A DNA stretch of 64,000 nt from a virus, in the IMG/VR virus record IMGVR_UViG_3300025407_000799, positions 1 to 64,000 of that record; one strand, written 5' to 3'. Positions 1,373 to 16,136 of this stretch are shown one piece after another. A program made the position numbers and the translations under genes. The notes beneath the pieces are model-generated. The model saw nothing but the letters and a program-made list of their open reading frames with translations, searched no databases and was not told the DNA's origin. How positions within the stretch are numbered: position 1 is the stretch's first letter; every line of letters starts with the position of its first letter.

Positions 1373-2236
1373 ATGACTGATTATTACCAAACATTAGGTG
1401 TTAGCGAAGGTGCTAGCCCAGAAGAAATTAAACGAGCATACCGAAGCTTGGCTAATAAACATCATCCAGACAAGGGTGGGGATCAAGCCAAATTCAAAGA
1501 TATCAGTGTTGCTTATGAAAATCTAAGTGATCCGCAAAAGAAAGCTGAATATGATCAACAACGTATGTACGGCGGCGGACAACAGTTCCATTTTAATACA
1601 GGCCCTGGAGGTTTTGATCCATTTGGTCATATGTTTGGTCAAGGGTTTGGACAAGGTAGTCCATTTGGTGACATTTTTGGTCACATGCGTCAACAAGCTA
1701 GACGTAATAGAGATTTAAACATACAATGTCAAGTAAGTTTTATCGATAGTTATACCGGTAAGCAGTTAGAAGCAAATTACAGACTACCAAGTGGACGTAA
1801 TCAAAATGTTGTTATTAACGTGCCGGCTGGTATACAAAACGGAGATACTATCCGTTATAACGGTCTAGGCGACGATAGTGTTCCTAATGCTCCACGTGGA
1901 AATTTAAATGTTACTATTATTGTAAATCCAGATCCAAACTACGAAAGACGTGGAGATGATGTGTTTACAAAAGTTGATATTACACCTATCGAAGCTATGA
2001 TTGGAACTAAGAAAACTGTTAAGACATTAGGTGGTCAAAGTTTAACTCTTGAAATTAGAGCAGGAGTTGAAACAGGAGTAGAGTATGCTAGTCACGGAAA
2101 TGGATTTCCGAATGTAAATAATGGGCAGAAGGGACGATTTGTTAGTGTAGTAAACATTAAAACTCCTGCTGTAACGGATCCACTTTTAGTAGCTGAACTA
2201 GGTAAACTCAATAATGCAATTAGTCAAAAGTACTGA
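1373..2236 (+). CDS. dnaJ: DnaJ-family co-chaperone, class B (CbpA-like, no zinc finger)
   Basis: J domain with HPD (KHHPDKGG), G/F-rich linker, DnaJ C-terminal domain; no CxxCxGxG repeats. Confidence 0.92.
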   Translation: MTDYYQTLGVSEGASPEEIKRAYRSLANKHHPDKGGDQAKFKDISVAYENLSDPQKKAEYDQQRMYGGGQQFHFNTGPGGFDPFGHMFGQGFGQGSPFGDIFGHMRQQARRNRDLNIQCQVSFIDSYTGKQLEANYRLPSGRNQNVVINVPAGIQNGDTIRYNGLGDDSVPNAPRGNLNVTIIVNPDPNYERRGDDVFTKVDITPIEAMIGTKKTVKTLGGQSLTLEIRAGVETGVEYASHGNGFPNVNNGQKGRFVSVVNIKTPAVTDPLLVAELGKLNNAISQKY

Positions 2237-2726
2237 TCAAATATTAAAAACTTGTGCCCAACCTTGGATTTTCGAAACCGATAAAGATTTTGAAGATGCT
2301 CGACAGCTAGAAATAGACATGGTTCAGCTTATGATTGAAAGTAACGGCATTGGCTTGGCTGCTAATCAAGTTGGACTACTTAAAAGAGTATTTGCAATTC
2401 TTCTTAAGGATCAAGTTCCGTTCTGCATGTTCAATCCGCAAATTGTTTCAAACACACCAGATTTTGTAAACGGGGAAGAAGGTTGTTTGAGCTTTCCTGA
2501 TTTATTTTTACCAGTAAAAAGATACAATTTGATTACCGCCGAATACTTTGACAGGGCGGGAAAAAAGTGTATAATAGATTTAAATGGAATAGATTCTAGA
2601 TGTTTCCAACATGAATTGGATCATTTAAATGGAGTCTGTTTTGTTGAAAAAGTTAGCCCGTTAAAGTTAGCAATGGCAAAAAAGAAACTATTAAAAAGAG
2701 GAAAAAGTAATGGTCGAACCAAGTGA
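2214..2726 (+). CDS. def: Peptide deformylase
   Basis: All three PDF motifs: GIGLAANQ, EGCLS, HELDH. Confidence 0.95.
   Translation: MQLVKSTDQILKTCAQPWIFETDKDFEDARQLEIDMVQLMIESNGIGLAANQVGLLKRVFAILLKDQVPFCMFNPQIVSNTPDFVNGEEGCLSFPDLFLPVKRYNLITAEYFDRAGKKCIIDLNGIDSRCFQHELDHLNGVCFVEKVSPLKLAMAKKKLLKRGKSNGRTK
2548..2575 (+). promoter_or_regulatory. Sigma70-type promoter inside def, upstream of clpA
   Basis: TTGACA (2548-2553), 16-nt spacer, TATAAT (2570-2575). Confidence 0.65.
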
Positions 2727-5001: not shown

Positions 5002-5611
5002 ACGTCTCTTTAAAGGCATATACCAGTACAAAATAGTGCTGGTATGTGCCGGTTCGCATTGGTTTCGCTCAGGTAATATAAGCGAAGCGTTTGCAGAATT
5101 ACAAAAAATAGATCTACAGTCAAATCAAAAAAATATACCGTATCGCAATACGTTTATTAAAACACGAGAAGATTTAGACTATGCTTTTAGTCTAGCAACT
5201 GTGTTAAATCAAATGAAAGATTTTGAATTACGTGTTGAGTCTCCATGGATTTCAATCTATACCAATGCTAAAAAAGATATAACTAAACTCTCTAAGCTAG
5301 ATGAAACTAAAGTAAAGTATATTTCTGAGCCAGCTAACACAAATCTTAGTGCAGATACTATAATCATGCCTAAAATGAACTTTGATTATCGTATTACACT
5401 GGGCAAAACTAACCAGCCTAACCCAGCATTTATAGACTGGGCAAACTCTAGTAAAAAATGCAAACTAACTAAAAGCTGTATTAGAGATCTAGGAAAACCT
5501 CGTAGTTGGGGTGGGACACATTTCTACATTACAGGCGATAACAATCTTCTATTAGCTAAAATGCACTTAGGTGGTTCCATAGCAAAGATAGAGCGTATAG
5601 TTAAAAACTAA
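4982..5611 (+). CDS. Hypothetical phage protein
   Basis: 209-aa ORF overlapping the clpA stop. Confidence 0.75.
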   Translation: MLYKTTRRLFKGIYQYKIVLVCAGSHWFRSGNISEAFAELQKIDLQSNQKNIPYRNTFIKTREDLDYAFSLATVLNQMKDFELRVESPWISIYTNAKKDITKLSKLDETKVKYISEPANTNLSADTIIMPKMNFDYRITLGKTNQPNPAFIDWANSSKKCKLTKSCIRDLGKPRSWGGTHFYITGDNNLLLAKMHLGGSIAKIERIVKN

Positions 5612-5625
5612 AGCCTGTCAAAAGC

Positions 5626-5633
5626 GATAAATA
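5626..5633 (+). promoter_or_regulatory. T4-like late promoter
   Basis: GATAAATA in the intergenic gap (T4 late consensus TATAAATA). Confidence 0.65.
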
Positions 5634-5679
5634 CTCTAACCGCAGAGTTATCTGCTGATATTACGTTACGGGCTTAAAA

Positions 5680-6051
5680 ATGCGCATACAAGACTTATTA
5701 GAAGGGCATCATTTTAAAGATAGCGATTTTGTTGTCAATAAAGGTGAAAAACGCGAGATCAATTTCGATCTAGCTGAAGATCTGATGCATTTCATGCACA
5801 ACGATGACGATGTGTACCGCCGTCATTTGTATCCAAGCCTATCATTTTGTATTGATAGAGCTAAATCCAAACAACCTACAAAGAAAAGTATATTCGGGCC
5901 AGCTGTTGAAAGCAGTTACAAATTATACGTTAAAAAATTTCCTATACGCGAACTACCAGACGAATTAGACAAAGAATTATGTAATGAAATCTGTGAAAAA
6001 CTTCACGAGGAATTTAAAGAACATTTAAGCGACGGCAAGTACAAGGACTAA
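5680..6051 (+). CDS. Putative capsid-internal protein (CTS-like N-terminus MRIQDLLE)
   Basis: First gene after the late promoter; N-terminus ends in LLE like T4 internal-protein propeptides. Confidence 0.7.
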   Translation: MRIQDLLEGHHFKDSDFVVNKGEKREINFDLAEDLMHFMHNDDDVYRRHLYPSLSFCIDRAKSKQPTKKSIFGPAVESSYKLYVKKFPIRELPDELDKELCNEICEKLHEEFKEHLSDGKYKD

Positions 6052-6053
6052 CA

Positions 6054-7913
6054 ATGCTATTAAGAGAATTATTCGTTAGCCTTCATAATAAAAAAATCAT
6101 TAACGAAGGCGGTAATATTTGGCCTGACACAGATCATTTCGATCAAGCCATTGCTGCCAATTTAGCTCACGAAACTGACAAGTACCTAAACAGTCTTAGT
6201 CTTAAAGTATATCTTATCGGAAGTGCTGCAACTCCAACACCTGGAAAAATGAGCGGTGATTTAGATGTTATGACTGATATGAGTCATCTTATGAATCATT
6301 TTAAAATTAAAGATCCTAAGACAGCACGTATTGAGTTAGAAAAATACTTACAAGGTCAAGGTTTAATGACTAAACGTACAGGTGTTACTGTACATATTCG
6401 TTTACCATATGAAGATAAATTCTATCAAGTAGATATTAAAGCCGTTGTAAACGCAGAGAAAGTACATAAATTTCATGTACACAATATTCCAGCAGGAAGT
6501 CCTTACAAAGGTGTACACAAACAAATGATGATGAATGCGCTAGCAAGTAGTCAAGGAATGTTGTGGTCGCCAGATGAAGCGTTATATGCTAGAGATGCTG
6601 AAGGTAAGAAATCAAATATGATTAGTGATGACTTAGATGTTATTGCTAAAAAATTGTTAGGACCGCATGCCAAGGAATCAGATTTAGGCAGTGTTGAAAG
6701 TATTTTAAATGCTATTCCAGATCCAGCACGTAAGAAGGAAATATTTGACAAAGCAAGTAGTGGTGCAAGTTGGCAAGCTGTTACTCCAACTACAATAAAC
6801 GAAGCCGCTGCTCCAACTGTTGGCCGTAAATATCAACATATCGAAGATTTAGTATTCACGAATGGTAGTACAGGCGGATTGCATGCCGTTGAACGACTAC
6901 GTCATATGACCAGTAAGGGTGGCAGCATAGAATTAAAATGGGATGGTAGTCCAGTTATCTATTGGGGTCGTGATGAACACGGTAAGTTCCATATGTTTCC
7001 AAAAAATGCATGGGACTATATGAAGCGTGGTACTACTCATACTAAGAGTGGTGTAACTACCATGATGAACGACCCAGATGATGTTGCTATGTTTATTTTA
7101 GGAACTGGAACCTTACAGCCTGGGCAAGAAGAACAGCGCAAAGCATTTGCAAGAGGATTGTCAGACCTTTGGCCATACTTTGAACAGATTAGTCCTAAGA
7201 CAGGGTATATCGAAGGTGGGATATTGTTTAGTCCATTAAAGCCGGCGGTGTTAAATCCTAGCACACACGAATACGACTTTACTCCTAACATAACAAGTTT
7301 CCATATTCCTGCAACTAGCGAATTAGGTAAAAAAATTGCTAAGGCAAAAATAATGGTTGCTGCCACTGGATACTATACTCATATCGGAGCAGATGAAACA
7401 CGTTATCCTAATGCTGAAAAATTATCAACATCAGATATAATTGTGCAAGGTACAACTTATGTAGAAAATGCTCCTCAAGTAGATTCTACTGGTTTAGATC
7501 ACGCAGAAGATTATATTAAACAGAATAAATCAGCTATCGATAGTTTCTTAGCAGGACAACCTGGACTAAGTAAACCTGGAGATGTATTATATACATTCTT
7601 TAATCAAAATTTACGAGTTGCAGGTGTCAAACAACATTTTGCACAATGGGCTCAATCTAAATTAAGTAACGCACAAGCACAAAAAGTTTTAAGCCATCCT
7701 GGACTCGATGCTGTGTTGACCGCTGTTGAATTATTAACACATGAAAAAATGAAAGTAATTTCAGCACTAAGTAGTGGAACACACGGTGGAATCCGACAAA
7801 CAAAGCCCGAAGGTTATGTACAAGCTCACCCTGGTGGTAAGTTTAAAAACGACATACCCGGACAGTTTGTTAAAACAATCGACCAAGCCAACTGGGCTCC
7901 AAGGAAAGACTAA
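6054..7913 (+). CDS. Two-domain protein: Pol-beta-type nucleotidyltransferase + KxDG ligase-like domain; probable virion cargo
   Basis: LIGS...SGDLDV...YQVDI (GS/DxD/D). Second domain has ELKWDGSP, YIEGG, PEGYV, FVKT. Domains are separated by TINE/A; N-terminus MLLRELF...IINE. Confidence 0.7.
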   Translation: MLLRELFVSLHNKKIINEGGNIWPDTDHFDQAIAANLAHETDKYLNSLSLKVYLIGSAATPTPGKMSGDLDVMTDMSHLMNHFKIKDPKTARIELEKYLQGQGLMTKRTGVTVHIRLPYEDKFYQVDIKAVVNAEKVHKFHVHNIPAGSPYKGVHKQMMMNALASSQGMLWSPDEALYARDAEGKKSNMISDDLDVIAKKLLGPHAKESDLGSVESILNAIPDPARKKEIFDKASSGASWQAVTPTTINEAAAPTVGRKYQHIEDLVFTNGSTGGLHAVERLRHMTSKGGSIELKWDGSPVIYWGRDEHGKFHMFPKNAWDYMKRGTTHTKSGVTTMMNDPDDVAMFILGTGTLQPGQEEQRKAFARGLSDLWPYFEQISPKTGYIEGGILFSPLKPAVLNPSTHEYDFTPNITSFHIPATSELGKKIAKAKIMVAATGYYTHIGADETRYPNAEKLSTSDIIVQGTTYVENAPQVDSTGLDHAEDYIKQNKSAIDSFLAGQPGLSKPGDVLYTFFNQNLRVAGVKQHFAQWAQSKLSNAQAQKVLSHPGLDAVLTAVELLTHEKMKVISALSSGTHGGIRQTKPEGYVQAHPGGKFKNDIPGQFVKTIDQANWAPRKD

Positions 7914-9094
7914 TGCGTTTAAGACAACTTTTTGAAAACTTAGATCGCACCGGCGAAGGAAAAGCTGCTGTAGTTGGTTGGGGTCGCGGCATGGGTCATA
8001 AAGGACACATGTTCTTAGCTGACGCTGTTATTACACAAGCTGAAGAAACTGGCGCTGATCCTTATTTTGTTGTTAGTCGTACTATAGGTAAAGACGATCC
8101 AATTACTCCAGAAGAAAAATTGCACATCTATAAAAAAGTATTTCCTAAACATGGACATATTTTTCATACCGCTACAGAAGAAATGCCAGATTTAACTCGT
8201 GTACTAACACAGTTAAACAAACATGGTTATACAGATGTTACGGTAGTTGTTGGTGCAGATCAAAAAAATGCTTTAAGTTATGTAACACAGTATAACGGTA
8301 AACCAGATAAAGCAGGTAATGTACCATTTAATTTTAATAGTTTAAATGTTATTAGTCGTCAAGAGACTAATAGTAAGTATTCCCAAGAAGAAGGACCACG
8401 TGCTACACCAATGCGCGATATACTTAAAGATCCTAATGCCAGTGACGATGAAAAATTCCAAGCATGGCGTGACGCTATGAGTCCAGAACTAAGCGATGAT
8501 GAAGTTCGCGACATGATGACAAAAGCTGGACAACGCATGGCAGATCCTACCTTTGGTAAAAAGCCTAAAGTAGCAAAGAAAGAAAAGGCTGTAGCGGAAA
8601 ACGTTACTTCGATTAAATATGCTAATAAGGTAATTAGAGAAATGAGAGCACAAGAATTTGTCCGTCGTCAATTAAATGAAAAAGCAACTATAACAGCAGC
8701 TACACCAGATGCACCGTATGCCGGTCAAGGTGATAGCGATGATTTAGCAGATGAACACTTGGCTGGTTTAAACCATGCTGTTAGTTTTCCATCTATCAGT
8801 ATGAACAAATCAAATGGTAGTTCTTATCTACAATATAGATTTGGTCTAGCAATGGCTGGAGCACACCCTAATGCAAACGACCATATGCCTGTGCCTATGT
8901 CTACCGGAGGAGCATTTAGCGGAGATCCATTAATTGCACCGTTCAGCGATCAGGATTTAGAAATTGTTAAAGCTGCAGGCAAACATATTGGTGCCGGTAA
9001 AATGACTAAATTGGCAGATAGAAGTAATGAAATGCCAAATACTAATAAAGTTAGTCCTATAGCTAAACCTAAAAAGAACAAATACGGAATATAA
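7913..9094 (+). CDS. HxGH nucleotidyltransferase (cytidylyltransferase-like) fused to a second CTS-bearing module starting at 8642
   Basis: WGRGMGHKGH, VVVGAD, RATPMR (SxTxxR-like); N-terminus MRLRQLFE; internal MRAQEF at 8642. Confidence 0.8.
   Translation: MRLRQLFENLDRTGEGKAAVVGWGRGMGHKGHMFLADAVITQAEETGADPYFVVSRTIGKDDPITPEEKLHIYKKVFPKHGHIFHTATEEMPDLTRVLTQLNKHGYTDVTVVVGADQKNALSYVTQYNGKPDKAGNVPFNFNSLNVISRQETNSKYSQEEGPRATPMRDILKDPNASDDEKFQAWRDAMSPELSDDEVRDMMTKAGQRMADPTFGKKPKVAKKEKAVAENVTSIKYANKVIREMRAQEFVRRQLNEKATITAATPDAPYAGQGDSDDLADEHLAGLNHAVSFPSISMNKSNGSSYLQYRFGLAMAGAHPNANDHMPVPMSTGGAFSGDPLIAPFSDQDLEIVKAAGKHIGAGKMTKLADRSNEMPNTNKVSPIAKPKKNKYGI
8614..8630 (+). promoter_or_regulatory. Internal late-promoter-like TAAATA and AAGG RBS ahead of in-frame ATG 8642
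   Basis: TAAATA at 8614-8619, AAGG at 8627-8630, ATG at 8642 encoding MRAQEF. Confidence 0.45.
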
Positions 9095-9473
9095 AATGCG
9101 AGCCAAAGAGTTTATTACCGAACATACAGGAAAGCATCATGATAATCACATGGTAGCAGCTCAAGGTACTCGTAAGGTTCGCGATCCTGGAGGTTACTAT
9201 CCTAGTTACCATCAAATGCGCATGGGTATAGTAGTTGGTACTATGGACGGTAAAGGTAATATACCAAAAAATGTTCCGCATGAAAGTTGGATGGGTCCAT
9301 ATTGGACGCAACATCCTTGGACTGAAATAGAACATAAGATGTTCCAAGATGCTAAAAAAGTCATCCCAACAGAAGATCATGAAGTAATACCTTGGAAGAA
9401 AAGTGAAGAGCCAAGTGATACACACAAAGTTAGCCCAATAGCTAAATCTAAAAAGAACAAATACGGAATCTAA
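9047..9473 (+). repeat. Imperfect 48-nt direct repeat (9047-9094 and 9426-9473) encoding KVSPIAK[P/S]KKNKYGI-stop
   Basis: 44/48 nt identical by manual alignment. Confidence 0.9.
9096..9473 (+). CDS. Putative capsid-internal protein, paralog of the 8642-9094 module
   Basis: MRAKEFITE resembles the T4 CTS MKTYQEFIAE; shared basic C-terminal tail. Confidence 0.8.
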   Translation: MRAKEFITEHTGKHHDNHMVAAQGTRKVRDPGGYYPSYHQMRMGIVVGTMDGKGNIPKNVPHESWMGPYWTQHPWTEIEHKMFQDAKKVIPTEDHEVIPWKKSEEPSDTHKVSPIAKSKKNKYGI

Positions 9474-9474
9474 G

Positions 9475-9912
9475 ATGGACGAAAAATATCATTTAGCACT
9501 TAAAACAGCATTTGCTAGTGAATATGCCTTTGCATTAAAGGCGCAAAACTTTCATTGGAATACAGAAGGACCTTTATTCTATCAACAACATTTATTGTTT
9601 GAAAGAATTTATGATGAAGTTTACGGAAGCATTGATACGTTTGCTGAACAATTACGTGCTTTACAAGTTTATACTCCAGCAAGTTTAGCTAAATTTAGTA
9701 TGTTATCTAAAGTAGAAGACGAAAATGCTGTACCAGATTTTCACGGAATGTTAAGCGAGTTATTAGAAGATAGTGAACGTATGGCTAATATCTTTCGTAT
9801 TACATTTACTATGGCAGAAGAACACGGCGATCACGGACTAAGTAATTTTTTAGCAGATCGTCAAGATGCACATAAAAAACACAGCTGGATGTTAAGAGCG
9901 AGTTTAAAATAA
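9475..9912 (+). CDS. dps: Dps / ferritin-like DNA protection protein
   Basis: NFHWN..G..F...H..FE..Y....D..AE ferroxidase pattern; C-terminal HSWML. Confidence 0.9.
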   Translation: MDEKYHLALKTAFASEYAFALKAQNFHWNTEGPLFYQQHLLFERIYDEVYGSIDTFAEQLRALQVYTPASLAKFSMLSKVEDENAVPDFHGMLSELLEDSERMANIFRITFTMAEEHGDHGLSNFLADRQDAHKKHSWMLRASLK

Positions 9913-10148
9913 TGGATGAACTAGCACAACTTAAGAAGTTAGCAGGCATTAACGAGTTTAAAGGCCTACAACCTTACGGCGGTAGCAATATCAGTATAAC
10001 TGGTACAGAGAAAGCAAAGATTATGCGTGAACAAAATATACAGCCTGGAACTGAAGAATGGTTCAAGTTGTGGTTTAGTTTACCTAAATTTATGAATGGC
10101 GAACGTGCTGTAGGTACAGGATACAGAGGAATTAAAAATGAAAATTAA
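9912..10148 (+). CDS. Small conserved phage protein with ELAQLKKLAG motif
   Basis: Coupled TAATG start; MDELAQLKKLAGINE; IQPGTEEWFKLWF. Confidence 0.75.
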   Translation: MDELAQLKKLAGINEFKGLQPYGGSNISITGTEKAKIMREQNIQPGTEEWFKLWFSLPKFMNGERAVGTGYRGIKNEN

Positions 10149-10971
10149 TGAATTAGAAGAAAGTTACAGACGTAACAGCCTAACAAATTATTACGATAGC
10201 GATGGCAATGATTTGCGTGGCGGTGCTAGCGATGAAGCTAATTTATGGTACAAATACGATCCGCAAGACGGCAGACTTAAACAACGAATGATTGCCGGGC
10301 ACGAAGAACGTGCTGCACGTAACGCAGGATTCAGAGATGGGCAAGAGGCTGCATTAAGAGTACACGGCATTGTTAGGAGCAAATATCATCACGGTAAGTG
10401 GATACAAAATCAAGGCGGCAAGTGGATTGAAGTACATCCGTTTGGTAACTCAGAAATTGAGAATGAAGGTATAGCTAGTGCGGCTATGGCAAAATTGCCT
10501 GGTTTTCTAAATACCATAGGAAAAGATTCACAATCGATTGCTAAAATACAAGATCAAATCACTCAGCGCATAGTACGTGCAGGTGAAGGACATCCTGCTG
10601 TGGCTCATTTGAATGATGCACATAGTTGGCTAAGCCAGATGTATAAGAATCCTACCGAAGAACAAGCCAAGGCATTTTACCAAGCTGTTCAAAAAGCCAA
10701 TGGTGCTGGTATTAGAGAATCGGCTACAGCAGGTGCTACCAGTGCCGCTAACATCGGAACCGTAGATGCTCCGCATTTAAGTCCAGGAAAAGCCCGTGGA
10801 AAGAAAAGCTATATTGGTAGTCCAGGGCGTAGTGGCACAAAAGCACCCCCACAGCCTAAGGTTGTACAACCTAAAAACAAGAACGGAACAGCCAAAAACG
10901 GTTTAGATATTAAAGGTACCAGCTTATTTGGTGGTCCTAAGAACGAAGCACAAGTCATCAAAAGACGCTAA
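10138..10971 (+). CDS. Putative capsid-internal modular protein
   Basis: MKINELEE/S, IENE/G, IRE/S; basic C-terminal module. Confidence 0.7.
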   Translation: MKINELEESYRRNSLTNYYDSDGNDLRGGASDEANLWYKYDPQDGRLKQRMIAGHEERAARNAGFRDGQEAALRVHGIVRSKYHHGKWIQNQGGKWIEVHPFGNSEIENEGIASAAMAKLPGFLNTIGKDSQSIAKIQDQITQRIVRAGEGHPAVAHLNDAHSWLSQMYKNPTEEQAKAFYQAVQKANGAGIRESATAGATSAANIGTVDAPHLSPGKARGKKSYIGSPGRSGTKAPPQPKVVQPKNKNGTAKNGLDIKGTSLFGGPKNEAQVIKRR

Positions 10972-10974
10972 ATA
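10968..10974 (+). promoter_or_regulatory. T4-like late promoter
   Basis: CTAAATA about 25 nt upstream of ATG 10999; GGAG RBS in between. Confidence 0.55.
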
Positions 10975-10998
10975 TATAAAGATAAACGGAGTATACTC

Positions 10999-12492
10999 AT
11001 GCCACCAGAATTAGATAACATGGAACCAGAAATGAACATGGACAACCAAGAAGGGGAAGTAATTGGAACGCACGGCGACACAGATCGCGAAGGTGCAATG
11101 GCCAAAGCTGACCTACACAAACTAGCCACTTATGCTACAAAACTAGGCGAACAGATCCAAGACGAAGATCAATTAGAAGCATGGGTACAAGCTAAGATTA
11201 CCAAAGCAGCTGATTATATCGCTAGTGTGTATCATTATCTAGAATACGAAATGAAGTTTACAGAGTATGCTCATCATTTAGATAATAGCGATACCTTAAG
11301 CGAAAGTCAAAAACGTGCTCTTAAAAACAAGTTAATGGAAGCTAAGGCTAAAGTTAAAGAACTTAAGAAAACTCAAGCTGAAAAGATTAAGTCTAAAGAA
11401 GAAAAAATTGACGAAAGTTTGATGGACCCATGCGGACACTGCGGTGGTTCAGGACATGTTGAACGTCAAATTCCTGGACATGTAAAAGCTAAAGTAGAAA
11501 AACATAAAAAACTACATAACTTTATTGATAAAAAAATTAAAGATGCTAATAAAAACGGAATCCCAGATGACGAAGAAGTTGACGAAGATTTTGATGCATT
11601 AAAGAAAACAGGCGATAAGACTAAAACAGCTGCAGGCGGTATAGTTACTAAGACTGACAAAGGTATCAAACACGAGCGTCCTTCATCAAGTTATGATGAT
11701 GGCGGTGATGAGTTAGATTCAATTGCTAAATCAGGCAAGGGCACAAAGAGTCATGCTAAAGCTAAAGACTCTGCTACTAAGAAAGCTGAAAAGTCAAACG
11801 ACATCAAACTACCTAAGCACACAGGCAATACATGGGGCATGAAAGGTGGCGAAAAGTTTGGTAAGAAGATGGAAGAAGGCAAAGAAAAGAAAGCCGACAA
11901 AGACTACGACGGTGACGGTAAAGTAGAATCTGGTAAAGATGAATACTTAGGTAGCCGCATTGCTGCTGCTAAGAAGGCTGGCAAATTAAAAGAAGCCGTC
12001 AAGATGTGCAAAGAATGCGATATGCCTGTAACAGAATGCAGTTGCAAGTCAGTTAAAGAAAGTGCCAAGCCAAGCGCAGGTTTAAGCAAGGCTAAAAAGT
12101 CTGCTACAGTTAAAAAGGCCAAAGCAGGCGGCGACATTGGTAAACCAGGTAAAGGTTTTGACAAACTAGCTAAAAAAGCCGGTGGTGGCGAGAAAGGTGA
12201 GAAAATTGCCGCGGCCGCTATGTGGAAGAACATCAAAGAAACTACTGCTTACATTGCTGAAAAAGCAAAAGCTGCTAAACCAGATTTCTTAGACATGGAC
12301 AAAGACGGTGACAAGAAAGAGCCAATGAAGAAAGCTGTTGCTGACAAGAAGAAAGAGGCTGTTAAAGAGTCTACAGATTTTAGTCGCTTACAAGAGCTAA
12401 CAGGTCGCTTGAATCGTGCAGAAAAGCCAGCACTAGTTGAAAACCGTGAGGTAGATCAAATCCGTGCATTAACAAAACGTTTATTGGGATAA
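10999..12492 (+). CDS. Lys/Glu-rich modular head/core-like protein with EF-hand-like and Cys-rich minimodules
   Basis: LEAWVQAKITKAADY domain; DYDGDGKVESGKDE, DMDKDGDKKE, DANKNGIPDD loops; CGHCGGSG and CKEC...CSC; many [ILVM]xE sites. Confidence 0.75.
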   Translation: MPPELDNMEPEMNMDNQEGEVIGTHGDTDREGAMAKADLHKLATYATKLGEQIQDEDQLEAWVQAKITKAADYIASVYHYLEYEMKFTEYAHHLDNSDTLSESQKRALKNKLMEAKAKVKELKKTQAEKIKSKEEKIDESLMDPCGHCGGSGHVERQIPGHVKAKVEKHKKLHNFIDKKIKDANKNGIPDDEEVDEDFDALKKTGDKTKTAAGGIVTKTDKGIKHERPSSSYDDGGDELDSIAKSGKGTKSHAKAKDSATKKAEKSNDIKLPKHTGNTWGMKGGEKFGKKMEEGKEKKADKDYDGDGKVESGKDEYLGSRIAAAKKAGKLKEAVKMCKECDMPVTECSCKSVKESAKPSAGLSKAKKSATVKKAKAGGDIGKPGKGFDKLAKKAGGGEKGEKIAAAAMWKNIKETTAYIAEKAKAAKPDFLDMDKDGDKKEPMKKAVADKKKEAVKESTDFSRLQELTGRLNRAEKPALVENREVDQIRALTKRLLG

Positions 12493-12496
12493 TCCA

Positions 12497-13336
12497 ATGG
12501 ACATGAAGCGCATTCTACAGGCGATGGATGGAGTGTCTACAAAGCCTGTAGAAGGCGCAAATGACATGAAAAAGTTCCTTCAGGTTGTAACTGAAGGGGC
12601 TAATCCTCATAAAGTTAGCTTGCCTGTTCAAATGGCCATGCAACACTATCAGAAGCCTAAAGAAGAACCTACTAGACCTGTAGGACGCGAACTTACTATT
12701 AGCAAATATTTTCATAAAGTAGAAGAAGAGCTTGCTGAACAAAAAACTGAAAAGCAACAATTAATAAAACAATACAGTCAAACTATTGCTGACCGTGTTT
12801 TAATGAAAGAATCTGCATCAAAAAAACTTGCAGAACATGAAATCCCCGGACATAGTATGGGATTCACAGGCGGTGTCGGTCCTGGTATGCAAGATTATGT
12901 AGTCGATGAAGCTCCATTAGATTTTGATAAAGAAAATCCAGCATCCAGTACTATATACGGACATAAGAGTAATCCTGGATCTATTGAATATAGAATTATG
13001 CGAGCTCGCGCACAACTAAAAGATTTAGCAGAACGAGCACAAAGTAACGAATTAATTGTATGGGAAGGCATTTCACGTCAATTCCCTGAACTGGCCATGA
13101 ATATCGAAGAAATACGTCATGGTATTGAAGAACTAGCTAAGATCCGTAAAGGCGGTGGACGTAGAGTCCACAATATACCTAAGGAAATTGGAGAAGCTGT
13201 ACTAGCTCCTATCAAACCAGCTACACCAAAAGCAATTAAACCAAAAAAGAAAACTAGTGTTTGTCGAACAGGACAAGTACAAACAGGAATGCAAACCAAA
13301 GATGGGAAGCTAGTTCCCAAGTGTTCAATTAAATAA
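12497..13336 (+). CDS. Putative capsid-internal modular protein
   Basis: MDMKRILQAMD...DMKKFLQVVTE; several xxE/[GSA] sites; C-terminal C...LVPKC module. Confidence 0.7.
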   Translation: MDMKRILQAMDGVSTKPVEGANDMKKFLQVVTEGANPHKVSLPVQMAMQHYQKPKEEPTRPVGRELTISKYFHKVEEELAEQKTEKQQLIKQYSQTIADRVLMKESASKKLAEHEIPGHSMGFTGGVGPGMQDYVVDEAPLDFDKENPASSTIYGHKSNPGSIEYRIMRARAQLKDLAERAQSNELIVWEGISRQFPELAMNIEEIRHGIEELAKIRKGGGRRVHNIPKEIGEAVLAPIKPATPKAIKPKKKTSVCRTGQVQTGMQTKDGKLVPKCSIK

Positions 13337-13339
13337 ATA
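13330..13339 (+). promoter_or_regulatory. T4-like late promoter
   Basis: TAAATAAATA upstream of the AGGGA RBS and ATG 13360. Confidence 0.55.
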
Positions 13340-13359
13340 TAAAATCGTTAGGGAATAAT

Positions 13360-15783
13360 ATGAACTTAAGAGATTTGATGACAAAATTAGATACTATTGC
13401 AGAAGCAGATGATGCTAGAGCACAGTATGACAAATTTAAAGCCGATGACGCTCGTGCAGGAGCTATTACACAAGTTAAAACAATGCTAAAGCCAAATGGT
13501 GGCGGAAACTTTATCGATCCTAAGGACGGTATTGTTAAATGGCAAGAACAAATGCAAGGCGATTCAGGTGGGCCTGGTAGCGTCAGAGAGTTTCCATTCG
13601 ACTGGTATAAGAAAGGTCAAGAATCAAAGTTTTTTGATATTTTAAAAACTGCTGGATTAGAACTAGTTCCAGTTGATAGAAAAAATTTGTTTGGTACAAG
13701 TCAAGTAGTAGGTATTAAAGGCGGGCCACAAGCATTAGCTAATTTAGATAAACCTCAAACTCCTACAGCACCAACAGGTCCAACTGCAGGACAGCAAAAA
13801 GGTCCACAAGACGATATTGCAAAATTAGATGCGTTAACTGCTCAATTAGAAGCTAGTTTGAAAGGTCAAGGTCCTGCTCCAGATACAACAACAACACCAA
13901 CTACTACAACTACTACTAATCCACCAGTTAAGAAAGACGAACCACAAAGTACTGGTAAGAAAGTTGCTACAGGGTTGGGAATTGGTGCTGGTGCATTGGC
14001 TGGACAACAGCTAGCTAAAAAAGCTGGTATGGGTGGATTTGGTCAAGCAGGTGCTGCAGGCATCGGCGGTGCTATCGGTGGGTTAGTTCCACAGGCTTTT
14101 ATGAAAGAAGGCATTGAATTTAACTCAAGCATGGCTCAATCTTTAACTGAAAGTTTTGGTTATGAGTTTGAAAATGAACAATTAGACGAATACAGTATGC
14201 AACAGTTTGGCCAGGATGCTGGCGACTTTGGTCGTGGTGCATGGAACGGTGCAACATTAGGCACAGGCGATAACATTGTTGCCGGTGTTAAAAGTGCATT
14301 TGGTCCAGGCACATACAAAGATGAATTACAAAAACAAATGGCTTCTAGTCAAGAAGCTGAAAAACGTAGTCCTTGGTTATACGGTGCTGGTAATGTCGCT
14401 GGTAGTATTGCAGCTCCAATTCCTGGAGGTGCTGTTGCAGGTGGATTGATTAAAGGTATAAGTACAGGTGCTAAATTAGCTCGTGCTGGAACATCGTTAG
14501 GTGTTAATTTGGCTGCACAAAAAGGTGTAGATACACTTAAGAACAAAGCTGATATCAACACACTAGCACAAGGTGGCGATCAAAAATTAGCACAATTACA
14601 ACAAGTTATTAAAACTATACCAGATGGTAAATTTGGCCCTAACACACAAAAAGCTCTAGCAGCTTGGCAAGCAGAACAAGGGTTACCTGCAACAGGTAAA
14701 CCAGATCCTGCAACTTACGCTAAAGCTGGTATTGCAGAATCTAAAGCAACAACTGTTGCAGAAGATATCAAAGCATTACAAAACAAACTAGCAATGATCG
14801 AAAGCGGTCAATGGCGTTTAGAAGAAGATGCAGACTATCGTGTATGGTTAACAGAAGATAATACTGTTATCGATGATTACGGTAATCAAATTGTAGACGA
14901 AAATGTTCTGGATGCAATTGAATGGGATCAACAACGTTTAGACGAATTAAATTTAGGTGGAATAGGCAAGGCATTAGGCCGCGGTTGGGATAAAGTAGCT
15001 AACGTTGGCAGAAACTTTGCAGGTGGACTTGCTGGCAAAGATGCTACAGGCAATTTGATTAAAGATACTGAAAAGAGTTTTGCTAACAGAATGGCTACTG
15101 AACCTATGAAAAACGGTAAACTTCGTAGTCCTGGTCAAATTGCACGTGATTCAACAAACGCTCGCGGTACAGCCAATATGGCTAATAAAGCCGCTAACTG
15201 GGTTGGTCAAAATCCAGGTAAGACTGCTTTAGGTGCTGCAGCACTTGGAGCAGGAGGAATTGCAGCCGCAAATGCGTTAGGCGGAGGCAGTGCTAGTGAA
15301 ACAGGAACAACTACCGGGGGAGGTAGTGGCGGTGGCGGTGGAGGAGCTAATTCAGATCCAAATATGCCACAAGCACCAGCGGGAGATACTCCAGGAACTA
15401 CTCCAGCTGCTGGAAATTTAACTCCAGACCAACAAGCATTGATTAAGCAAATAGAAGAATTGATGTCACACGATTGGGCTGATGATAAAGATTGGATCAA
15501 AGCAACTGGACACGCTCGTGTTGTATTGGATAAAGCTACTAAAGCAAATCCTCTACAAACAGCGATGGATGCTAAGAACGATGCGGGCGCAACTACTCAA
15601 ACAGCAAGTACACCGGCATCTACTCCAGCTACCGGTCAAAGTGCTGCACCAACAGGTGCAACTACTCCAGATCCAACATTGAAAGTTTACAAAGATGGCG
15701 GTGGTGCAGGAGCTGCATCTAACCCAGCTGTTAAAGAATCGGAAGATGAATTGGCACGTTGGTTAAGAATCGCTCGCGGTTAA
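13360..15783 (+). CDS. Large Gly/Ala-rich virion protein with peptidoglycan-binding domain and glycine-zipper segments (candidate ejection protein)
   Basis: LQQ...PDGKFGPNTQKALAAWQAEQGLPATGKPDPAT (PG_binding_1-like); GxxxGxxxG hydrophobic stretches; MNLRDLM...IAE N-terminus; C-terminal ELARWLRIARG. Confidence 0.7.
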   Translation: MNLRDLMTKLDTIAEADDARAQYDKFKADDARAGAITQVKTMLKPNGGGNFIDPKDGIVKWQEQMQGDSGGPGSVREFPFDWYKKGQESKFFDILKTAGLELVPVDRKNLFGTSQVVGIKGGPQALANLDKPQTPTAPTGPTAGQQKGPQDDIAKLDALTAQLEASLKGQGPAPDTTTTPTTTTTTNPPVKKDEPQSTGKKVATGLGIGAGALAGQQLAKKAGMGGFGQAGAAGIGGAIGGLVPQAFMKEGIEFNSSMAQSLTESFGYEFENEQLDEYSMQQFGQDAGDFGRGAWNGATLGTGDNIVAGVKSAFGPGTYKDELQKQMASSQEAEKRSPWLYGAGNVAGSIAAPIPGGAVAGGLIKGISTGAKLARAGTSLGVNLAAQKGVDTLKNKADINTLAQGGDQKLAQLQQVIKTIPDGKFGPNTQKALAAWQAEQGLPATGKPDPATYAKAGIAESKATTVAEDIKALQNKLAMIESGQWRLEEDADYRVWLTEDNTVIDDYGNQIVDENVLDAIEWDQQRLDELNLGGIGKALGRGWDKVANVGRNFAGGLAGKDATGNLIKDTEKSFANRMATEPMKNGKLRSPGQIARDSTNARGTANMANKAANWVGQNPGKTALGAAALGAGGIAAANALGGGSASETGTTTGGGSGGGGGGANSDPNMPQAPAGDTPGTTPAAGNLTPDQQALIKQIEELMSHDWADDKDWIKATGHARVVLDKATKANPLQTAMDAKNDAGATTQTASTPASTPATGQSAAPTGATTPDPTLKVYKDGGGAGAASNPAVKESEDELARWLRIARG

Positions 15784-15789
15784 TCAAAT

Positions 15790-15815
15790 AAATGGCAGAT
15801 TAATTTCTGCCATTT
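15790..15815 (+). terminator. Hairpin ending the late cargo block
   Basis: AAATGGCAGA-TTAATT-TCTGCCATTT, perfect 10-bp stem right after the stop at 15783. Confidence 0.7.
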
Positions 15816-15828: not shown

Positions 15829-15857
15829 TTGAGTTTTTAAGATAATTAGTTTATAAT
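15829..15857 (+). promoter_or_regulatory. Sigma70-type promoter for the replication block
   Basis: TTGAGT, 17-nt spacer, TATAAT; AGGAGA RBS before ATG 15879. Confidence 0.75.
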
Positions 15858-15878: not shown

Positions 15879-16136
15879 ATGTCAGGACGCTCGTACGGTG
15901 CAGAAGAAAAGGCAAAACTAGAAAGATTGATTAGCGAAGGTAGTACAGTATTACGTGAAGTCGAAGATTTAACAGAAGGCTTAAAAGAAACAGTTAAGGC
16001 AGTAGCAGAAGAATTGCAGATCAAACCATCAGTTATTAATAAGGCAATTAAAATCGCACATAAAGGTGATTGGCAAGCCCATAATGCTGATTGGGAAGAA
16101 ATTGAAGCAATTTTGGATATTACAAAACGTATCTAA
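15879..16136 (+). CDS. Small dsDNA-binding protein (T4 DsbA/GapR-like)
   Basis: 85-aa helical protein, LKETVKAVAEELQIKPSVINKAIK pattern, directly upstream of the polymerase. Confidence 0.6.
   Translation: MSGRSYGAEEKAKLERLISEGSTVLREVEDLTEGLKETVKAVAEELQIKPSVINKAIKIAHKGDWQAHNADWEEIEAILDITKRI

What the first reader, a model, noticed from the sequence alone, without database searches (positions are those of the whole stretch)
5680..15783. Late-expressed block of capsid-targeted, protease-processed 'cargo polyproteins'
Seen: most genes between a late promoter (5626) and a terminator (15790) start with similar peptides: MRIQDLLE, MLLRELF..IINE, MRLRQLFE, MRAQEF..LNE, MRAKEFITE, MKINELEE, MDMKRIL, MNLRDLM..IAE. 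Their modules are separated by [ILVM]-x-E followed mostly by G/S/A (TINE/A, IENE/G, IRE/S, IDE/S, MEE/G, LKE/A, VKE/S, VTE/G, VDE/A). Known: T4 internal proteins use the capsid-targeting sequence MKTYQEFIAE, are cut after [IL]xE by prohead protease gp21, and are injected with the DNA. Inference: about 10 kb encoding a programmable payload, where single ORFs are matured inside the head into several effectors, including enzymes.
Basis: partly seen in the sequence, partly recalled or inferred. Interest (0 to 1): 0.82.

Follow-up and report, generated by a model that had tools for sequence, protein, structure and literature searches.

The report
Capsid-targeted cargo operon in giant phage
An uncultured giant lake phage has a ten-gene late operon whose proteins share a short T4-like address tag and conserved cutting sites, so they are probably loaded into the capsid, trimmed there and delivered with the DNA, although no virion data prove it yet.

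Summary
The window is the first 64 kb of a 97.8-kb fragment of an uncultured RaK2/PA5oct-like jumbo myovirus. Its head module is T4-type: gp20 portal, S77 gp21-like protease, gp23 capsid protein, plus a gp55-like late sigma factor.

Window 5680-15783 holds ten tightly packed + strand ORFs. They lie behind a GATAAATA late-promoter box that is kept in 42 of 42 distinct relatives.

- **Leaders:** the N-termini resemble each other far more than chance (p about 1e-4). The best match to one of them elsewhere in the genome is a prohead-core-position protein.
- **Portability:** leaders stay constant in relatives while the bodies behind them vary, are swapped, lost or fused.
- **Cutting motif:** [ILVM]xE[GSA] occurs 23 times against 9.5 expected. 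Its glutamates are conserved well above their surroundings (p=4e-6), as in the scaffold protein and unlike ClpA or the DNA polymerase.
- **Cultured relative:** in PA5oct, 4 of 5 annotated leader-bearing proteins were detected in virions.

Best reading (about 0.6): T4-type capsid targeting with protease trimming, here applied to enzymes (nucleotidyltransferase, ligase-like DUF6267, cytidylyltransferase-like).

Release of several separate effectors from one ORF is plausible but unshown. No virion data exist for this phage. It is a new variant of a known mechanism.

The parts
5626..5633 (+). GATAAATA late-promoter box, 46 nt upstream of ORF1
   Evidence: ATAAATA lies near -53 in 42 of 42 distinct upstream regions of ORF1 orthologues. 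The same heptamer precedes tail, baseplate and head genes. It is depleted elsewhere: 8 in the window against 32.8 +/- 6.0 expected. A gp55-like sigma factor lies at genome 79373-80212.
5642..5655 (+). 5'-leader hairpin just downstream of the late promoter
   Evidence: RNAfold gives a hairpin of -4 kcal/mol or better in 38 of 41 distinct leaders of relatives. The stem sequences differ between them.
5680..6051 (+). ORF1, 123 aa. Leader MRIQDLLE followed by G. Body of unknown function.
   Evidence: LLE followed by G, N or S is kept in 45 of 45 orthologues, with flank identity 0.46. No Pfam, PHROG or NCBIfam hit.
6054..7913 (+). ORF2, 619 aa. Leader aa 1-18 (MLLRELF..INE, then G), pol-beta-type nucleotidyltransferase-like module aa 19-247, conserved INE-then-A at aa 248-250 (nt 6795-6803), and a ligase-like DUF6267 module with an invariant KWDG.
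   Evidence: DUF6267 hit 1.2e-15. Invariant K295-W296-D297-G298. Residues 19-247 match stand-alone viral proteins of 243-270 aa at TM 0.90-0.94. Leader site kept in 35 of 41 orthologues and INE-then-A in 33 of 41. In L006 the same leader is joined directly to DUF6267, with no nucleotidyltransferase module.
7913..9094 (+). ORF3, 393 aa. Leader MRLRQLFE, cytidylyltransferase-like module (about aa 9-240), junction IRE-then-M at nt 8633-8641, an internal second leader MRAQEF..LNE (nt 8642-8680), and a C-terminal module paralogous to ORF4.
   Evidence: phrog_3041 2e-21. CTP_transf_like clusters score 0.94. 226 phage records match, annotated cytidyltransferase. IRE-then-M is kept in 11 of 17 orthologues. 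The ORF4-like part is a separate gene in L131 and fused in others.
9096..9473 (+). ORF4, 125 aa. Leader MRAKEFITE followed by H, the closest to the T4 CTS. Basic body (pI 9.2).
   Evidence: Joint top BLOSUM score against the T4 CTS core among the 93 ORFs. ITE kept in 14 of 16 orthologues. L109 has a 176-aa ORF with the same leader and another body. pI.
9475..9912 (+). ORF5, 145 aa. Dps/ferritin-like. No leader. The most conserved gene of the block.
   Evidence: PF00210 4e-19. Dps models in NCBIfam. Mean identity 0.82.
9912..10148 (+). ORF6, 78 aa. Second leader class: MDELAQLKKLAGINE followed by F.
   Evidence: [IV]xE followed by F or Y at aa 13-15 is kept in 26 of 37 orthologues. PA5oct virion protein gp203 starts with a similar ..LRLAGVQAVKE followed by S.
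10138..10971 (+). ORF7, 277 aa. Leader MKINELEE followed by S, a hypervariable middle, IRE-then-S at aa 192-194 (nt 10711-10719), and a constant C-terminal module of about 85 aa.
   Evidence: Family lengths run from 94 to 342 aa. The 94-aa member in L131 is leader plus C-module only. IRE followed by S or T is kept in 25 of 26 orthologues against flank identity 0.48.
10999..12492 (+). ORF8, 497 aa. Highly charged. No M-x-x-R-E-L leader. Dense in motif sites, like the scaffold.
   Evidence: 7 [ILVM]xE[GSA] sites against 1.8 expected. LME-then-A kept in 32 of 32 orthologues, VKE-then-S in 30 of 32, IDE followed by G, S or N in 24 of 32.
12497..13336 (+). ORF9, 279 aa. 33-aa leader MDMKRILQAMDG..VVTE followed by G (nt 12497-12595), in front of bodies of very variable length.
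   Evidence: Family lengths run from 207 to 780 aa behind the same leader. VTE followed by G or A is kept in 29 of 29 orthologues of similar length. A subfamily has D at P1 instead.
13333..13339 (+). Second ATAAATA box, 20 nt upstream of ORF10
13360..15783 (+). ORF10, 807 aa. Leader MNLRDLMTKLDTIAE followed by A, a low-complexity variable N-region, LTE-then-S at aa 262-264 (nt 14143-14151), then a conserved module with a peptidoglycan-binding domain (aa 408-454).
   Evidence: PF01471 6.9e-11. IAE followed by A or G kept in 12 of 21 orthologues. LTE-then-S kept in 20 of 21 against flank identity 0.34. Family lengths 432-959 aa plus one 249-aa form without the leader.
15790..15815 (.). 10-bp palindromic hairpin that closes the block, followed by a sigma-70-like promoter at 15829-15857
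   Evidence: It is flagged as terminator-like on the - strand only. Sequence.

Best explanation
**What it is.** The block is a late, gp55-type-transcribed operon of prohead-core-targeted proteins. It belongs to an uncultured RaK2/PA5oct-like jumbo myovirus whose head is built the T4 way.

**How it works.** Six ORFs carry a short amphipathic leader, M-x-[IL]-[RKNQ]-[EDQ]-[LF]-[LFMI], that ends 8-18 residues in at an [ILVM]-x-E site. Two further ORFs carry other conserved leaders of 15 and 33 residues. By analogy with the T4 capsid targeting sequence, the leader docks the protein onto the scaffold core while the prohead assembles. The S77 gp21-like protease then cuts after the glutamate, and also at further conserved [ILVM]xE-then-[GSA] sites. 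The released bodies stay inside the head and leave with the DNA at infection.

**Cargo.** It includes a nucleotidyltransferase, a ligase-like DUF6267 domain, a cytidylyltransferase-like domain, small basic proteins and a protein with a peptidoglycan-binding domain.

**Shown:** the leaders, their portability, the conserved sites, the protease and head module, the late-promoter box, and virion detection of leader-bearing proteins in PA5oct.

**Inferred:** targeting, cleavage, retention in the head and ejection in this phage.
For: **1. Genome context.**
- T4-type head module in the same contig: Portal_T4 5.8e-104, Peptidase_S77 2.9e-25 (phrog_207 1.6e-57), Gp23 4.4e-98.
- Late sigma factor phrog_12791, 2.3e-74.
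- The capsid protein is 67-73% identical to those of PA5oct, Phosso and RaK2-like jumbo phages.
- One relative contig is 345,369 bp and 94% complete.

**2. Leaders are real.**
- Block N-termini score 6.18 against 1.94 +/- 0.87 for random sets, p about 1e-4.
- The best N-terminal pair genome-wide apart from a tail-fibre pair is ORF2 (MLLRELF) with the 80-aa protein MILRELF, which lies between portal and protease.
- The codons differ synonymously, so selection acts on the peptide.

**3. Leaders are portable.**
- The L006 protein is leader plus DUF6267, without the nucleotidyltransferase module.
- L109 has MRAKEFITE in front of an unrelated 176-aa body, and L116 has MRVKDIVSKFIAE followed by G in front of a new 675-aa body.
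- Bodies range from 94 to 342 aa in the ORF7 family and from 207 to 780 aa in the ORF9 family.
- L105 has a 984-aa fusion of ORF2 and ORF3.

**4. Fast evolution.** Block ORFs have median identity 39-81% to relatives, against 91% for the polymerase and 84.5% for ClpA.

**5. Sites.**
- [ILVM]xE[GSA] occurs 23 times against 9.5 expected. The scaffold has 14 against 2.5.
- P1 glutamates are conserved above their neighbourhood by +0.263 (n=23), against -0.031 for other glutamates (n=156), p=3.8e-6.
- For internal sites only: +0.234 (n=18) against -0.035 (n=139), p=2.4e-4.
- The same signature appears in the scaffold: +0.162 (n=14) against -0.053 (n=25), p=0.002.
- It is absent from ClpA, the 209-aa ORF, the 85-aa ORF and the polymerase: 0.007 (n=8) against 0.016 (n=114), p=0.74.
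- The capsid protein keeps ..LLE followed by G at aa 16-18 in all 30 orthologues, and PA5oct has ..LTE followed by G at the same place.

**6. Module borders.** ORF2 residues 19-247 equal a stand-alone viral fold at TM 0.90-0.94. This is bracketed by the two sites at residues 18 and 250.

**7. Late expression.** GATAAATA is kept in 42 of 42 relatives. The same box precedes structural genes.

**8. Cultured relative.**
- A leader-plus-site regex, derived post hoc from this window, was run on PA5oct bases 1-245,000 of 286,783. It hit 5 annotated CDS.
- Four of them carry the record's ESI-MS/MS virion note: gp150, gp152, gp203 and gp238. The fifth, gp20 of 52 aa, does not.
- The base rate is 93 of 461 CDS (abstract of PMC7318152, as listed).

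**9. Precedent.** The T4 CTS is 10-19 aa, is portable, and has been proposed as an evolutionary way to load varied proteins into capsids (passages of PMC9026906).
Against: - No virion proteome, N-terminomics or expression data exist for this phage or its close relatives. No RNA run was listed.
- Similarity to the T4 CTS itself is not significant for the block (Mann-Whitney p=0.26).
- The enzyme modules occur without such leaders in T4-like cyanophages. There they sit next to primase and MazG, a replication-type context.
- The cytidylyltransferase-like proteins of PA5oct (gp307) and Vibrio phage 2.275.O have no leader. gp307 carries no virion note.
- The syntenic ClpA-to-polymerase block of PA5oct is virion-associated (10 of 12 genes). 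However, its proteins are not homologous to these, have fibre- or adhesin-like N-termini and have few motif sites.
- ORF5 and ORF8 lack the leader.
- A subfamily of ORF9 has D at P1.
- About 7 of the 18 internal sites are poorly conserved.
- The PA5oct regex was post hoc, and two of its four positive hits are head-module proteins that would be in virions anyway.
- Orthologues are related to one another, so the conservation p-values are not fully independent.
Confidence: 0.62

Rival explanations
1. **Assembly proteins, not cargo.** The leader-bearing proteins, above all ORF8, ORF9 and ORF10, are extra prohead core or scaffold components needed for a very large capsid. They would be chopped up and expelled before DNA packaging. 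The variable regions would be disposable propeptides, as in phiKZ and SPN3US, and at most a C-terminal fragment would remain.
For: ORF8-10 have scaffold-like motif density: 7/1.8, 5/1.2 and 6/2.0, against 14/2.5 for the scaffold. They are charged or low-complexity sequences. SPN3US has propeptides longer than 100 residues with several cut motifs, and all cleavages identified there remove N-terminal propeptides. In ORF7 and ORF10 a conserved site separates a variable N-part from a conserved C-module.
Against: ORF2 and ORF3 are enzymes with few sites: 2 and 0 [ILVM]xE[GSA] sites. Their sites lie at the leader and at module borders. Bodies that vary and get swapped look like effectors rather than structural scaffolds. 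A gp22-like scaffold already exists in the head module.
Confidence: 0.2
2. **Cytoplasmic late enzymes.** The proteins act in the infected cell, for example on nucleic acid modification or repair before packaging. Under this reading the N-terminal similarity reflects paralogy, an amphipathic first helix or translation-start constraints, and the [ILVM]xE sites are ordinary helix features.
For: The homologous DUF6267 and cytidylyltransferase genes lie in replication-type regions of cyanophages without such leaders. PA5oct gp307 is not noted as a virion protein. There is no direct virion evidence. Many block genes lack a clear Shine-Dalgarno sequence and overlap, which suits a plain coupled operon.
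Against: The leader is shared with a head-module core-position protein. It is kept through synonymous codon changes. It is attached to unrelated bodies. The glutamate conservation is specific to the motif and is mirrored only in the scaffold. The late-promoter box is the one used by structural genes. Leader-bearing PA5oct proteins are in virions.
Confidence: 0.12
3. **Virion proteins outside the head.** The block encodes tail, fibre or surface proteins, like the syntenic block of PA5oct.
For: In PA5oct, 10 of the 12 genes between ClpA and the DNA polymerase carry the virion note, and they look like fibres or adhesins. ORF10 has a peptidoglycan-binding domain, as tail-associated lysins do.
Against: There is no homology to the PA5oct block. 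There are no fibre-type N-termini or repeats. The window's own fibre genes start MSYTINHYNG and MAYSITRYNK. Tail genes show no motif enrichment, 18 against 17. The enzyme folds are not tail parts.
Confidence: 0.06

Closest known systems
Phage T4 internal proteins IPI, IPII, IPIII and Alt, with their capsid targeting sequence, processed by the prohead protease gp21 (Mullaney and Black 1996; passages of the review PMC9026906 read)
   Same: A short N-terminal leader ends in [LI]-x-E. The same leader sits in front of unrelated bodies. The genome has an S77 protease, a T4-type portal, scaffold and capsid protein, and a late-promoter box. Most bodies are basic. The locus evolves fast. One leader, MRAKEFITE, is close to the T4 sequence quoted in the finding.
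   Different: The phage lineage differs: a RaK2/PA5oct-like jumbo phage, uncultured. The bodies are not homologous to the T4 internal proteins. They include two- and three-module enzymes of up to 807 aa with conserved internal sites. There are at least three leader classes. The block is a single operon of about 10 kb between ClpA and the DNA polymerase. Nothing has been verified experimentally.
Processed head and ejection proteins of the giant phages phiKZ and SPN3US (PMC5694885 and PMC10052503; passages read)
   Same: A giant phage with a gp21-homologous protease that cuts after glutamate in a short motif. Several motif sites can occur in one protein. N-termini are conserved among diverged paralogues. 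Many proteins are packaged with the DNA.
   Different: Those phages use long propeptides, often over 100 residues, and all identified cuts remove N-terminal propeptides. Here most leaders are T4-length, 8-18 aa. No sequence relationship to those proteins was seen. The phage group is different.
Polyvalent proteins injected with phage DNA (Iyer et al. 2017, as cited in passages of PMC7824862 read; their defining features are recalled)
   Same: Several enzymatic modules in one ORF, proposed to be delivered with the DNA and to act in conflicts with the host.
   Different: Polyvalent proteins are much larger single proteins, often with their own peptidase domains. Here the ORFs are 78-807 aa, have no peptidase domain, and would depend on the head protease and a leader.
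PA5oct virion proteins gp150, gp203 and gp238 (GenBank MK797984 notes; PMC7318152)
   Same: The phage group is related. Their N-termini are MKINDIITE followed by G, ..LRLAGVQAVKE followed by S, and MKIKDILVE followed by S, like the leaders here. All were detected in virions by ESI-MS/MS.
   Different: In the 245 kb scanned they are scattered single genes, not an operon of enzymes. The paper does not mention targeting sequences or propeptides (0 occurrences of 'propeptide', 'internal' and 'ejected').

Membership tests
T4-type CTS-bearing internal head proteins | Short N-terminal propeptide (10-19 aa in T4) that ends at an [LI]-x-E cleavage site | tested here: met
   At sequence level only. Leader lengths are 8 aa in ORF1, 18 in ORF2, 8 in ORF3, 9 in ORF4, 15 in ORF6, 8 in ORF7, 33 in ORF9 and 15 in ORF10. 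The sites are kept in 12/21 to 45/45 orthologues. ORF5 and ORF8 have none.
T4-type CTS-bearing internal head proteins | Genome encodes a gp21-family (S77) prohead protease with a T4-type portal, scaffold and major capsid protein | tested here: met
   PF03420 2.9e-25, PF07230 5.8e-104, PF07068 4.4e-98, and phrog_237 scaffold at a weak 0.0026. These lie at genome 90693-96607, outside the window.
T4-type CTS-bearing internal head proteins | The same leader is attached to unrelated protein bodies (portability) | tested here: met
   These show leader plus DUF6267 without the nucleotidyltransferase module, MRAKEFITE in front of another body, and new bodies of 483-675 aa behind leaders of the same type.
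T4-type CTS-bearing internal head proteins | Late, gp55-dependent transcription | tested here: met
   At motif level only. GATAAATA is kept in 42 of 42 relatives. The box is shared with structural genes and depleted elsewhere. A gp55-like sigma factor is present. There are no transcript data.
T4-type CTS-bearing internal head proteins | Sequence likeness of the leader to the T4 CTS | tested here: inconclusive
   ORF4 has the joint top score among 93 ORFs. The block as a whole does not differ from other genes (p=0.26).
T4-type CTS-bearing internal head proteins | Bodies homologous to T4 IPI, IPII, IPIII or Alt | tested here: not met
   No Pfam or PHROG family of internal head proteins was hit. 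The bodies of T4 internal proteins are themselves not conserved among T4 relatives.
T4-type CTS-bearing internal head proteins | Protein present in virions with the leader removed, and ejected with the DNA | not testable with these tools
   Needs virion mass spectrometry or N-terminomics. The only proxy is PA5oct, where 4 of 5 annotated leader-bearing proteins carry virion notes.
phiKZ/SPN3US-type processed ejection proteins | Long N-terminal propeptide (over 100 aa) with several cleavage motifs, removed to leave a C-terminal mature fragment | tested here: inconclusive
   ORF7 (site at residue 194) and ORF10 (site at residue 264) fit this layout.
Polyvalent proteins | A very large single protein with many effector domains, often with its own processing peptidase (recalled definition) | tested here: not met
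   The largest ORF is 807 aa. No ORF has more than two recognisable enzyme modules, and none has a peptidase domain.
Viral polyprotein (several functional products from one ORF) | Conserved cleavage sites at the borders of independently folding modules that also exist as separate genes | tested here: inconclusive
   In ORF2, residues 19-247 equal a stand-alone fold, bracketed by sites at 18 and 250. In ORF3 the C-module is a separate gene in L131, and IRE-then-M is kept in 11 of 17 orthologues. However, fusions of this nucleotidyltransferase with DUF6267 are common in phages: one cluster of 245 members. Such a fusion may work uncut.

The most novel reading that the evidence does not exclude
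This is a capsid-delivered polyprotein system. Enzymes of a cassette that is conserved in aquatic T4-like phages as ordinary cytoplasmic genes (nucleotidyltransferase, ligase-like DUF6267, cytidylyltransferase) were recruited as injected cargo in this jumbo lineage, simply by adding a portable leader and fusing modules through protease sites. The head protease would then release several separate enzymes per ORF. These would enter the cell with the DNA and act on nucleic acids or nucleotides before any phage gene is expressed, for example as counter-defence. The neighbouring phage DnaJ, peptide deformylase and ClpA might help to load or unfold this cargo.
Probability: 0.28. Interest if true: 0.8.

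Novelty: new variant of a known kind. Interest (0 to 1): 0.6.

Why it matters
Capsid targeting by a short leader, followed by gp21 cleavage, is a T4 classic. In the open literature I could search, it has not been described for RaK2/PA5oct-like jumbo phages or for enzyme cargo.

If true, three things follow:
- It would show how a phage turns ordinary enzymes into injected first-minute tools, by adding a tag of about 10 residues.
- It would give a simple sequence rule for predicting head-internal proteins in uncultured giant phages.
- It would offer a testable function for the widespread but unexplained DUF6267 and cytidylyltransferase pair of marine and freshwater T4-like phages.

It would also provide natural leaders for loading proteins into large capsids.

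Tried and rejected
**Searches that led nowhere.**
- Megablast of the block against cultured phages found no match.
- tblastn of ORF4, ORF9 and ORF10 found no match.
- tblastn of ORF2 gave only weak DUF6267 hits in 12 cyanophage records. ORF8 gave 7 weak hits.
- Scoring N-termini against the T4 CTS showed no significant difference for the block.
- Searches of solved structures with ORF2, ORF3 and profile A1 gave nothing usable.
- NCBIfam found nothing for ORF1-3.
- RNA runs: none was listed.

**A call that tells nothing.** (fold_alignment) used coordinates in relatives that I had guessed wrongly. I redid the hairpin question.

**PA5oct synteny.** I hoped the block between ClpA and the polymerase would be orthologous. 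It is virion-associated, but it consists of unrelated fibre-like proteins without leaders. It therefore supports only 'late virion genes sit at this position'.

**gp55.** Pfam found nothing for the gp55-like gene. PHROGs did.

**Limits.**
- Supplements of PMC7318152, which hold the PA5oct virion protein list, were closed. I relied on the ESI-MS/MS notes in the GenBank record.
- Only bases 1-245,000 of the 286,783 bases of PA5oct were scanned.
- Statements that something is 'not in print' rest on searches only.

**Readings rejected.**
- An RNA-level or translation-start signal as the cause of the N-terminal similarity, because the codons differ synonymously.
- A tail or fibre identity for the block.

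Full report
**What the DNA is.** The window is bases 1-64000 of a single 97,798-bp virus contig.
- The contig's last 12 kb carry a T4-type head module: Portal_T4 (5.8e-104), an 80-aa protein, a 289-aa acidic protein, a Peptidase_S77 gp21-like prohead protease (PF03420 2.9e-25; phrog_207 1.6e-57), a 364-aa scaffold-like protein and a Gp23 major capsid protein (4.4e-98).
- The capsid protein is 67-73% identical to those of the jumbo phages Phosso, Vibrio 2.275.O, PA5oct and the RaK2-like group.
- More than 590 IMG/VR contigs carry a DNA polymerase at least 88% identical. One relative contig is 345,369 bp and 94% complete.
- The window is therefore a fragment of an uncultured jumbo myovirus.
- A gp55-like late sigma factor is present at genome 79373-80212 (phrog_12791, 2.3e-74).

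**The observation.**
- Between 5680 and 15783 there are ten + strand ORFs. Their stops and starts abut or overlap.
- All the quoted N-terminal peptides are there, but MRAQEF.. is internal: residue 244 of ORF3.
- The N-termini of the ten ORFs are much more alike than random sets of ten of the contig's 93 ORFs: 6.18 against 1.94 +/- 0.87, p about 1e-4. The block ranks first among all 84 contiguous ten-ORF runs.
- Outside a tail-fibre pair, the best N-terminal match in the whole contig is ORF2 (MLLRELF) with the 80-aa protein MILRELF between portal and protease. That is the place where T4 keeps its small prohead-core proteins (the T4 gene order is recalled).
- Codons in these leaders differ synonymously, so the peptide is what is conserved.
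- Six ORFs (1, 2, 3, 4, 7, 10) share the M-x-[IL]-[RKNQ]-[EDQ]-[LF] class. ORF6 and ORF9 have other leaders that are conserved among orthologues. ORF5 (Dps-like) and ORF8 have none.

**The cleavage motif.**
- Plain [ILVM]xE is too common to mean much: 64 against 41.1 expected in the block, and 217 against 196.2 elsewhere.
- With a small residue after it the picture sharpens: 23 against 9.5 in the block, 14 against 2.5 in the scaffold-like protein, 46 against 34.5 in other genes and 18 against 17.0 in tail genes.
- I then aligned 16-45 non-identical orthologues per ORF from IMG/VR loci.
- Glutamates at [ILVM]xE[GSA] are conserved above their +/-12-residue neighbourhood by 0.263 on average (n=23). 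Other glutamates of the same proteins show -0.031 (n=156), p=3.8e-6.
- With the first 40 residues excluded the figures are 0.234 (n=18) against -0.035 (n=139), p=2.4e-4.
- Negative control (ClpA, the 209-aa ORF, the 85-aa ORF and the polymerase): 0.007 (n=8) against 0.016 (n=114), p=0.74. Power is low because these genes are highly conserved.
- Positive control: in the scaffold-like protein, the 14 site glutamates are kept in 89-100% of 55 orthologues, 0.162 against -0.053, p=0.002. The capsid protein keeps ..LLE followed by G at residues 16-18 in all 30 orthologues.
- About 7 of the 18 internal block sites are not conserved.
- The quoted IENE/G does not fit the motif.

**Portability.**
- The block is syntenic in relatives (ClpA, a 209-aa ORF, the block, an 85-aa DsbA-like ORF, the polymerase), but it diverges much faster than its flanks. 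Median identity is 39-81% for block ORFs, against 84.5% for ClpA and 91% for the polymerase.
- The leaders stay while the bodies change.
  - In L006 the MLLRELF leader is joined directly to the DUF6267 module. The 230-residue nucleotidyltransferase module is absent.
  - L109 has an extra 176-aa ORF with the MRAKEFITE leader and another body. L116 has a 675-aa protein behind MRVKDIVSKFIAE followed by G.
  - The ORF7 family runs from 94 to 342 aa. Its smallest member is leader plus the constant C-module.
  - The ORF9 family runs from 207 to 780 aa behind one 33-residue leader.
  - L105 has a 984-aa fusion of ORF2 and ORF3.
  - ORF4 is a separate gene in L131, and an ORF4-like module forms the C-terminal part of ORF3 homologues elsewhere. 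In this window both occur: ORF3 carries such a module, preceded by the internal second leader after IRE followed by M, and ORF4 follows as a separate gene.
- Across relatives, 233 of 1997 + strand ORFs of at least 60 aa carry a leader plus a site. They make 171 unique bodies in 11 single-linkage families, of which about six are extra to the window's set.
- This fits a portable tag. The repertoire is mostly stable, so 'programmable' is too strong.

**Expression signals.**
- GATAAATA lies at 5626-5633. ATAAATA occurs 15 times on both strands of the contig.
- Ten copies lie 18-51 nt upstream of a start codon on the same strand. Seven of these precede fibre, baseplate, hub or head genes. Two precede ORF1 and ORF10 of the block. 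One precedes a 159-aa ORF of unknown function at 35731.
- Of the other five, two lie only 1-4 nt from a start, two have no nearby gene downstream, and one lies at the contig end.
- In the window the heptamer is depleted: 8 against 32.8 +/- 6.0 expected.
- All 42 distinct upstream regions of ORF1 orthologues keep it near -53. A hairpin follows in 38 of 41 distinct leaders, with different stem sequences.
- PA5oct has the same box in front of its own virion genes.
- The block ends at a 10-bp hairpin, 15790-15815, which is a weak terminator on the + strand. A sigma-70-like promoter then starts the next unit.

**What the bodies are.**
- **ORF2:** residues 19-247 match stand-alone viral proteins of 243-270 aa at TM 0.90-0.94, with NTP_transf_2 and pol-beta-palm leads. 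From residue 261 there is a DUF6267 domain with an invariant KWDG, a ligase-type lysine motif by recall.
- **ORF3:** a CTP_transf_like fold.
- **ORF5:** Dps/ferritin-like.
- **ORF10:** a peptidoglycan-binding domain.
- **Charge:** six of the ten proteins have pI 8.4-9.7.
- **Same pair elsewhere:** DUF6267 and cytidyltransferase lie side by side in the T4-like cyanophages S-CAM9 and S-8S56 without such leaders, next to primase and MazG. In pelagiphage HTVC008M they lie two genes apart, and both start with leader-like peptides. The enzyme core in PA5oct gp307 and in Vibrio 2.275.O has no leader.

**Evidence from a cultured relative.**
- The PA5oct GenBank record marks the proteins found in virions by ESI-MS/MS. 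The paper's abstract gives 93 of 461 CDS (as listed).
- A regex for leader plus site, derived post hoc from this window, was run over bases 1-245,000 of 286,783. It hit six ORFs, five of them annotated.
- gp150 (the 73-aa protein between portal and protease), gp152 (the protease), gp203 and gp238 carry the virion note. gp20 (52 aa) does not.
- PA5oct also has the arrangement DnaJ, ClpA, a late box, twelve genes, then the polymerase. Ten of those twelve genes are virion-noted, but they are unrelated fibre- or adhesin-like proteins without leaders.
- The PA5oct paper does not mention propeptides or targeting.

**Interpretation.**
- The simplest account is T4's own. The CTS is a portable 10-19-residue propeptide that docks proteins to the prohead core and is cut off by gp21. 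It has already been proposed as a way for T4-like phages to load varied proteins.
- Everything that can be tested in sequence is met here. Virion presence, cleavage and ejection are untested.
- Whether the internal sites release several working proteins, or only break up disposable propeptides as in SPN3US, cannot be decided.
  - ORF2, ORF3 and ORF7 lean towards separate modules. ORF8-10 look partly scaffold-like.
  - Nucleotidyltransferase-DUF6267 fusions are common in other phages, with one cluster of 245 members. Such a fusion may function uncut.

**Novelty.**
- The mechanism is known. New here are its use on enzymes in a dedicated late operon, in a jumbo-phage group where it has not been described, and with module-border sites.
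- Searches found no paper describing this. DUF6267 occurs in no paper of the library.
- Iyer et al. 2021 already speculate that phage ClpA or ClpX could translocate unfolded proteins or aid virion assembly. They also cite injected 'polyvalent proteins'.

**Verdict.** A real and coherent feature. My confidence is 0.62 that it is a set of CTS-type, protease-trimmed head proteins, and about 0.3 that single ORFs yield several injected effectors.

Noticed in passing
window 5634-5679: A hairpin lies 8-10 nt after the late-promoter box in the leader of the block mRNA. It is predicted in 38 of 41 distinct relatives, with quite different stem sequences (GCAGA/TCTGC, ACCCAA/TTGGGT, ATGCCA/TGGCAT and others). 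This suggests a conserved 5'-terminal structure that stabilises the mRNA or regulates it.
   Followed up: partly
window 1373-5611: A proteostasis cluster sits directly upstream of the block: a DnaJ/CbpA-like protein (1373-2236), peptide deformylase (2214-2726, TIGR00079 1.2e-39), a full-length ClpA (2710-5001, TIGR02639 1.4e-263) and an unknown 209-aa ORF. DnaJ followed by ClpA also precedes a virion-gene block in PA5oct, as gp297-gp298.
   Followed up: partly
window 53726-64000 (- strand, runs on to genome 70108): A single ORF of 5460 aa lies in the tail/baseplate operon. PA5oct has a 3857-aa counterpart, gp128, that was detected in virions.
   Followed up: no
L141 1740-4803, L142 1319-4800, L150 38-5282: DUF6267 and 'cytidyltransferase' genes lie side by side in T4-like cyanophages, preceded by a 246-381-aa ORF. 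In pelagiphage HTVC008M they lie two genes apart. This may be a conserved functional cassette of unknown role. In HTVC008M both enzymes start with leader-like peptides.
   Followed up: partly
window 15879-16136: An 85-aa ORF between the block and the polymerase is a T4 DsbA-like late-transcription protein (PF11126, 8.1e-06). It is 93% conserved among relatives. Its PA5oct counterpart gp310 carries a virion mass-spectrometry note.
   Followed up: no
G001:C1 31762 (-) and 337314 (-): The 345-kb relative has further leader-bearing ORFs outside the block: a 408-aa protein starting MNFKDLMTRLQAIEE followed by N, and a 136-aa protein starting MKIKELLTE followed by S. The complete genome therefore probably holds more such proteins than this fragment shows.
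   Followed up: partly
window 10999-12492: ORF8 carries two cysteine clusters (C-x2-C near residue 145 and C-x2-C..C-x-C near residues 337-349) in an otherwise lysine- and glutamate-rich sequence. They may be small zinc-binding knuckles.
   Followed up: no
window 5680-13360 (gene starts): Most block genes lack a recognisable Shine-Dalgarno sequence and overlap or abut the previous stop codon. The head genes, in contrast, have AGGAG-type sites. This suggests translational coupling along the operon.
   Followed up: no
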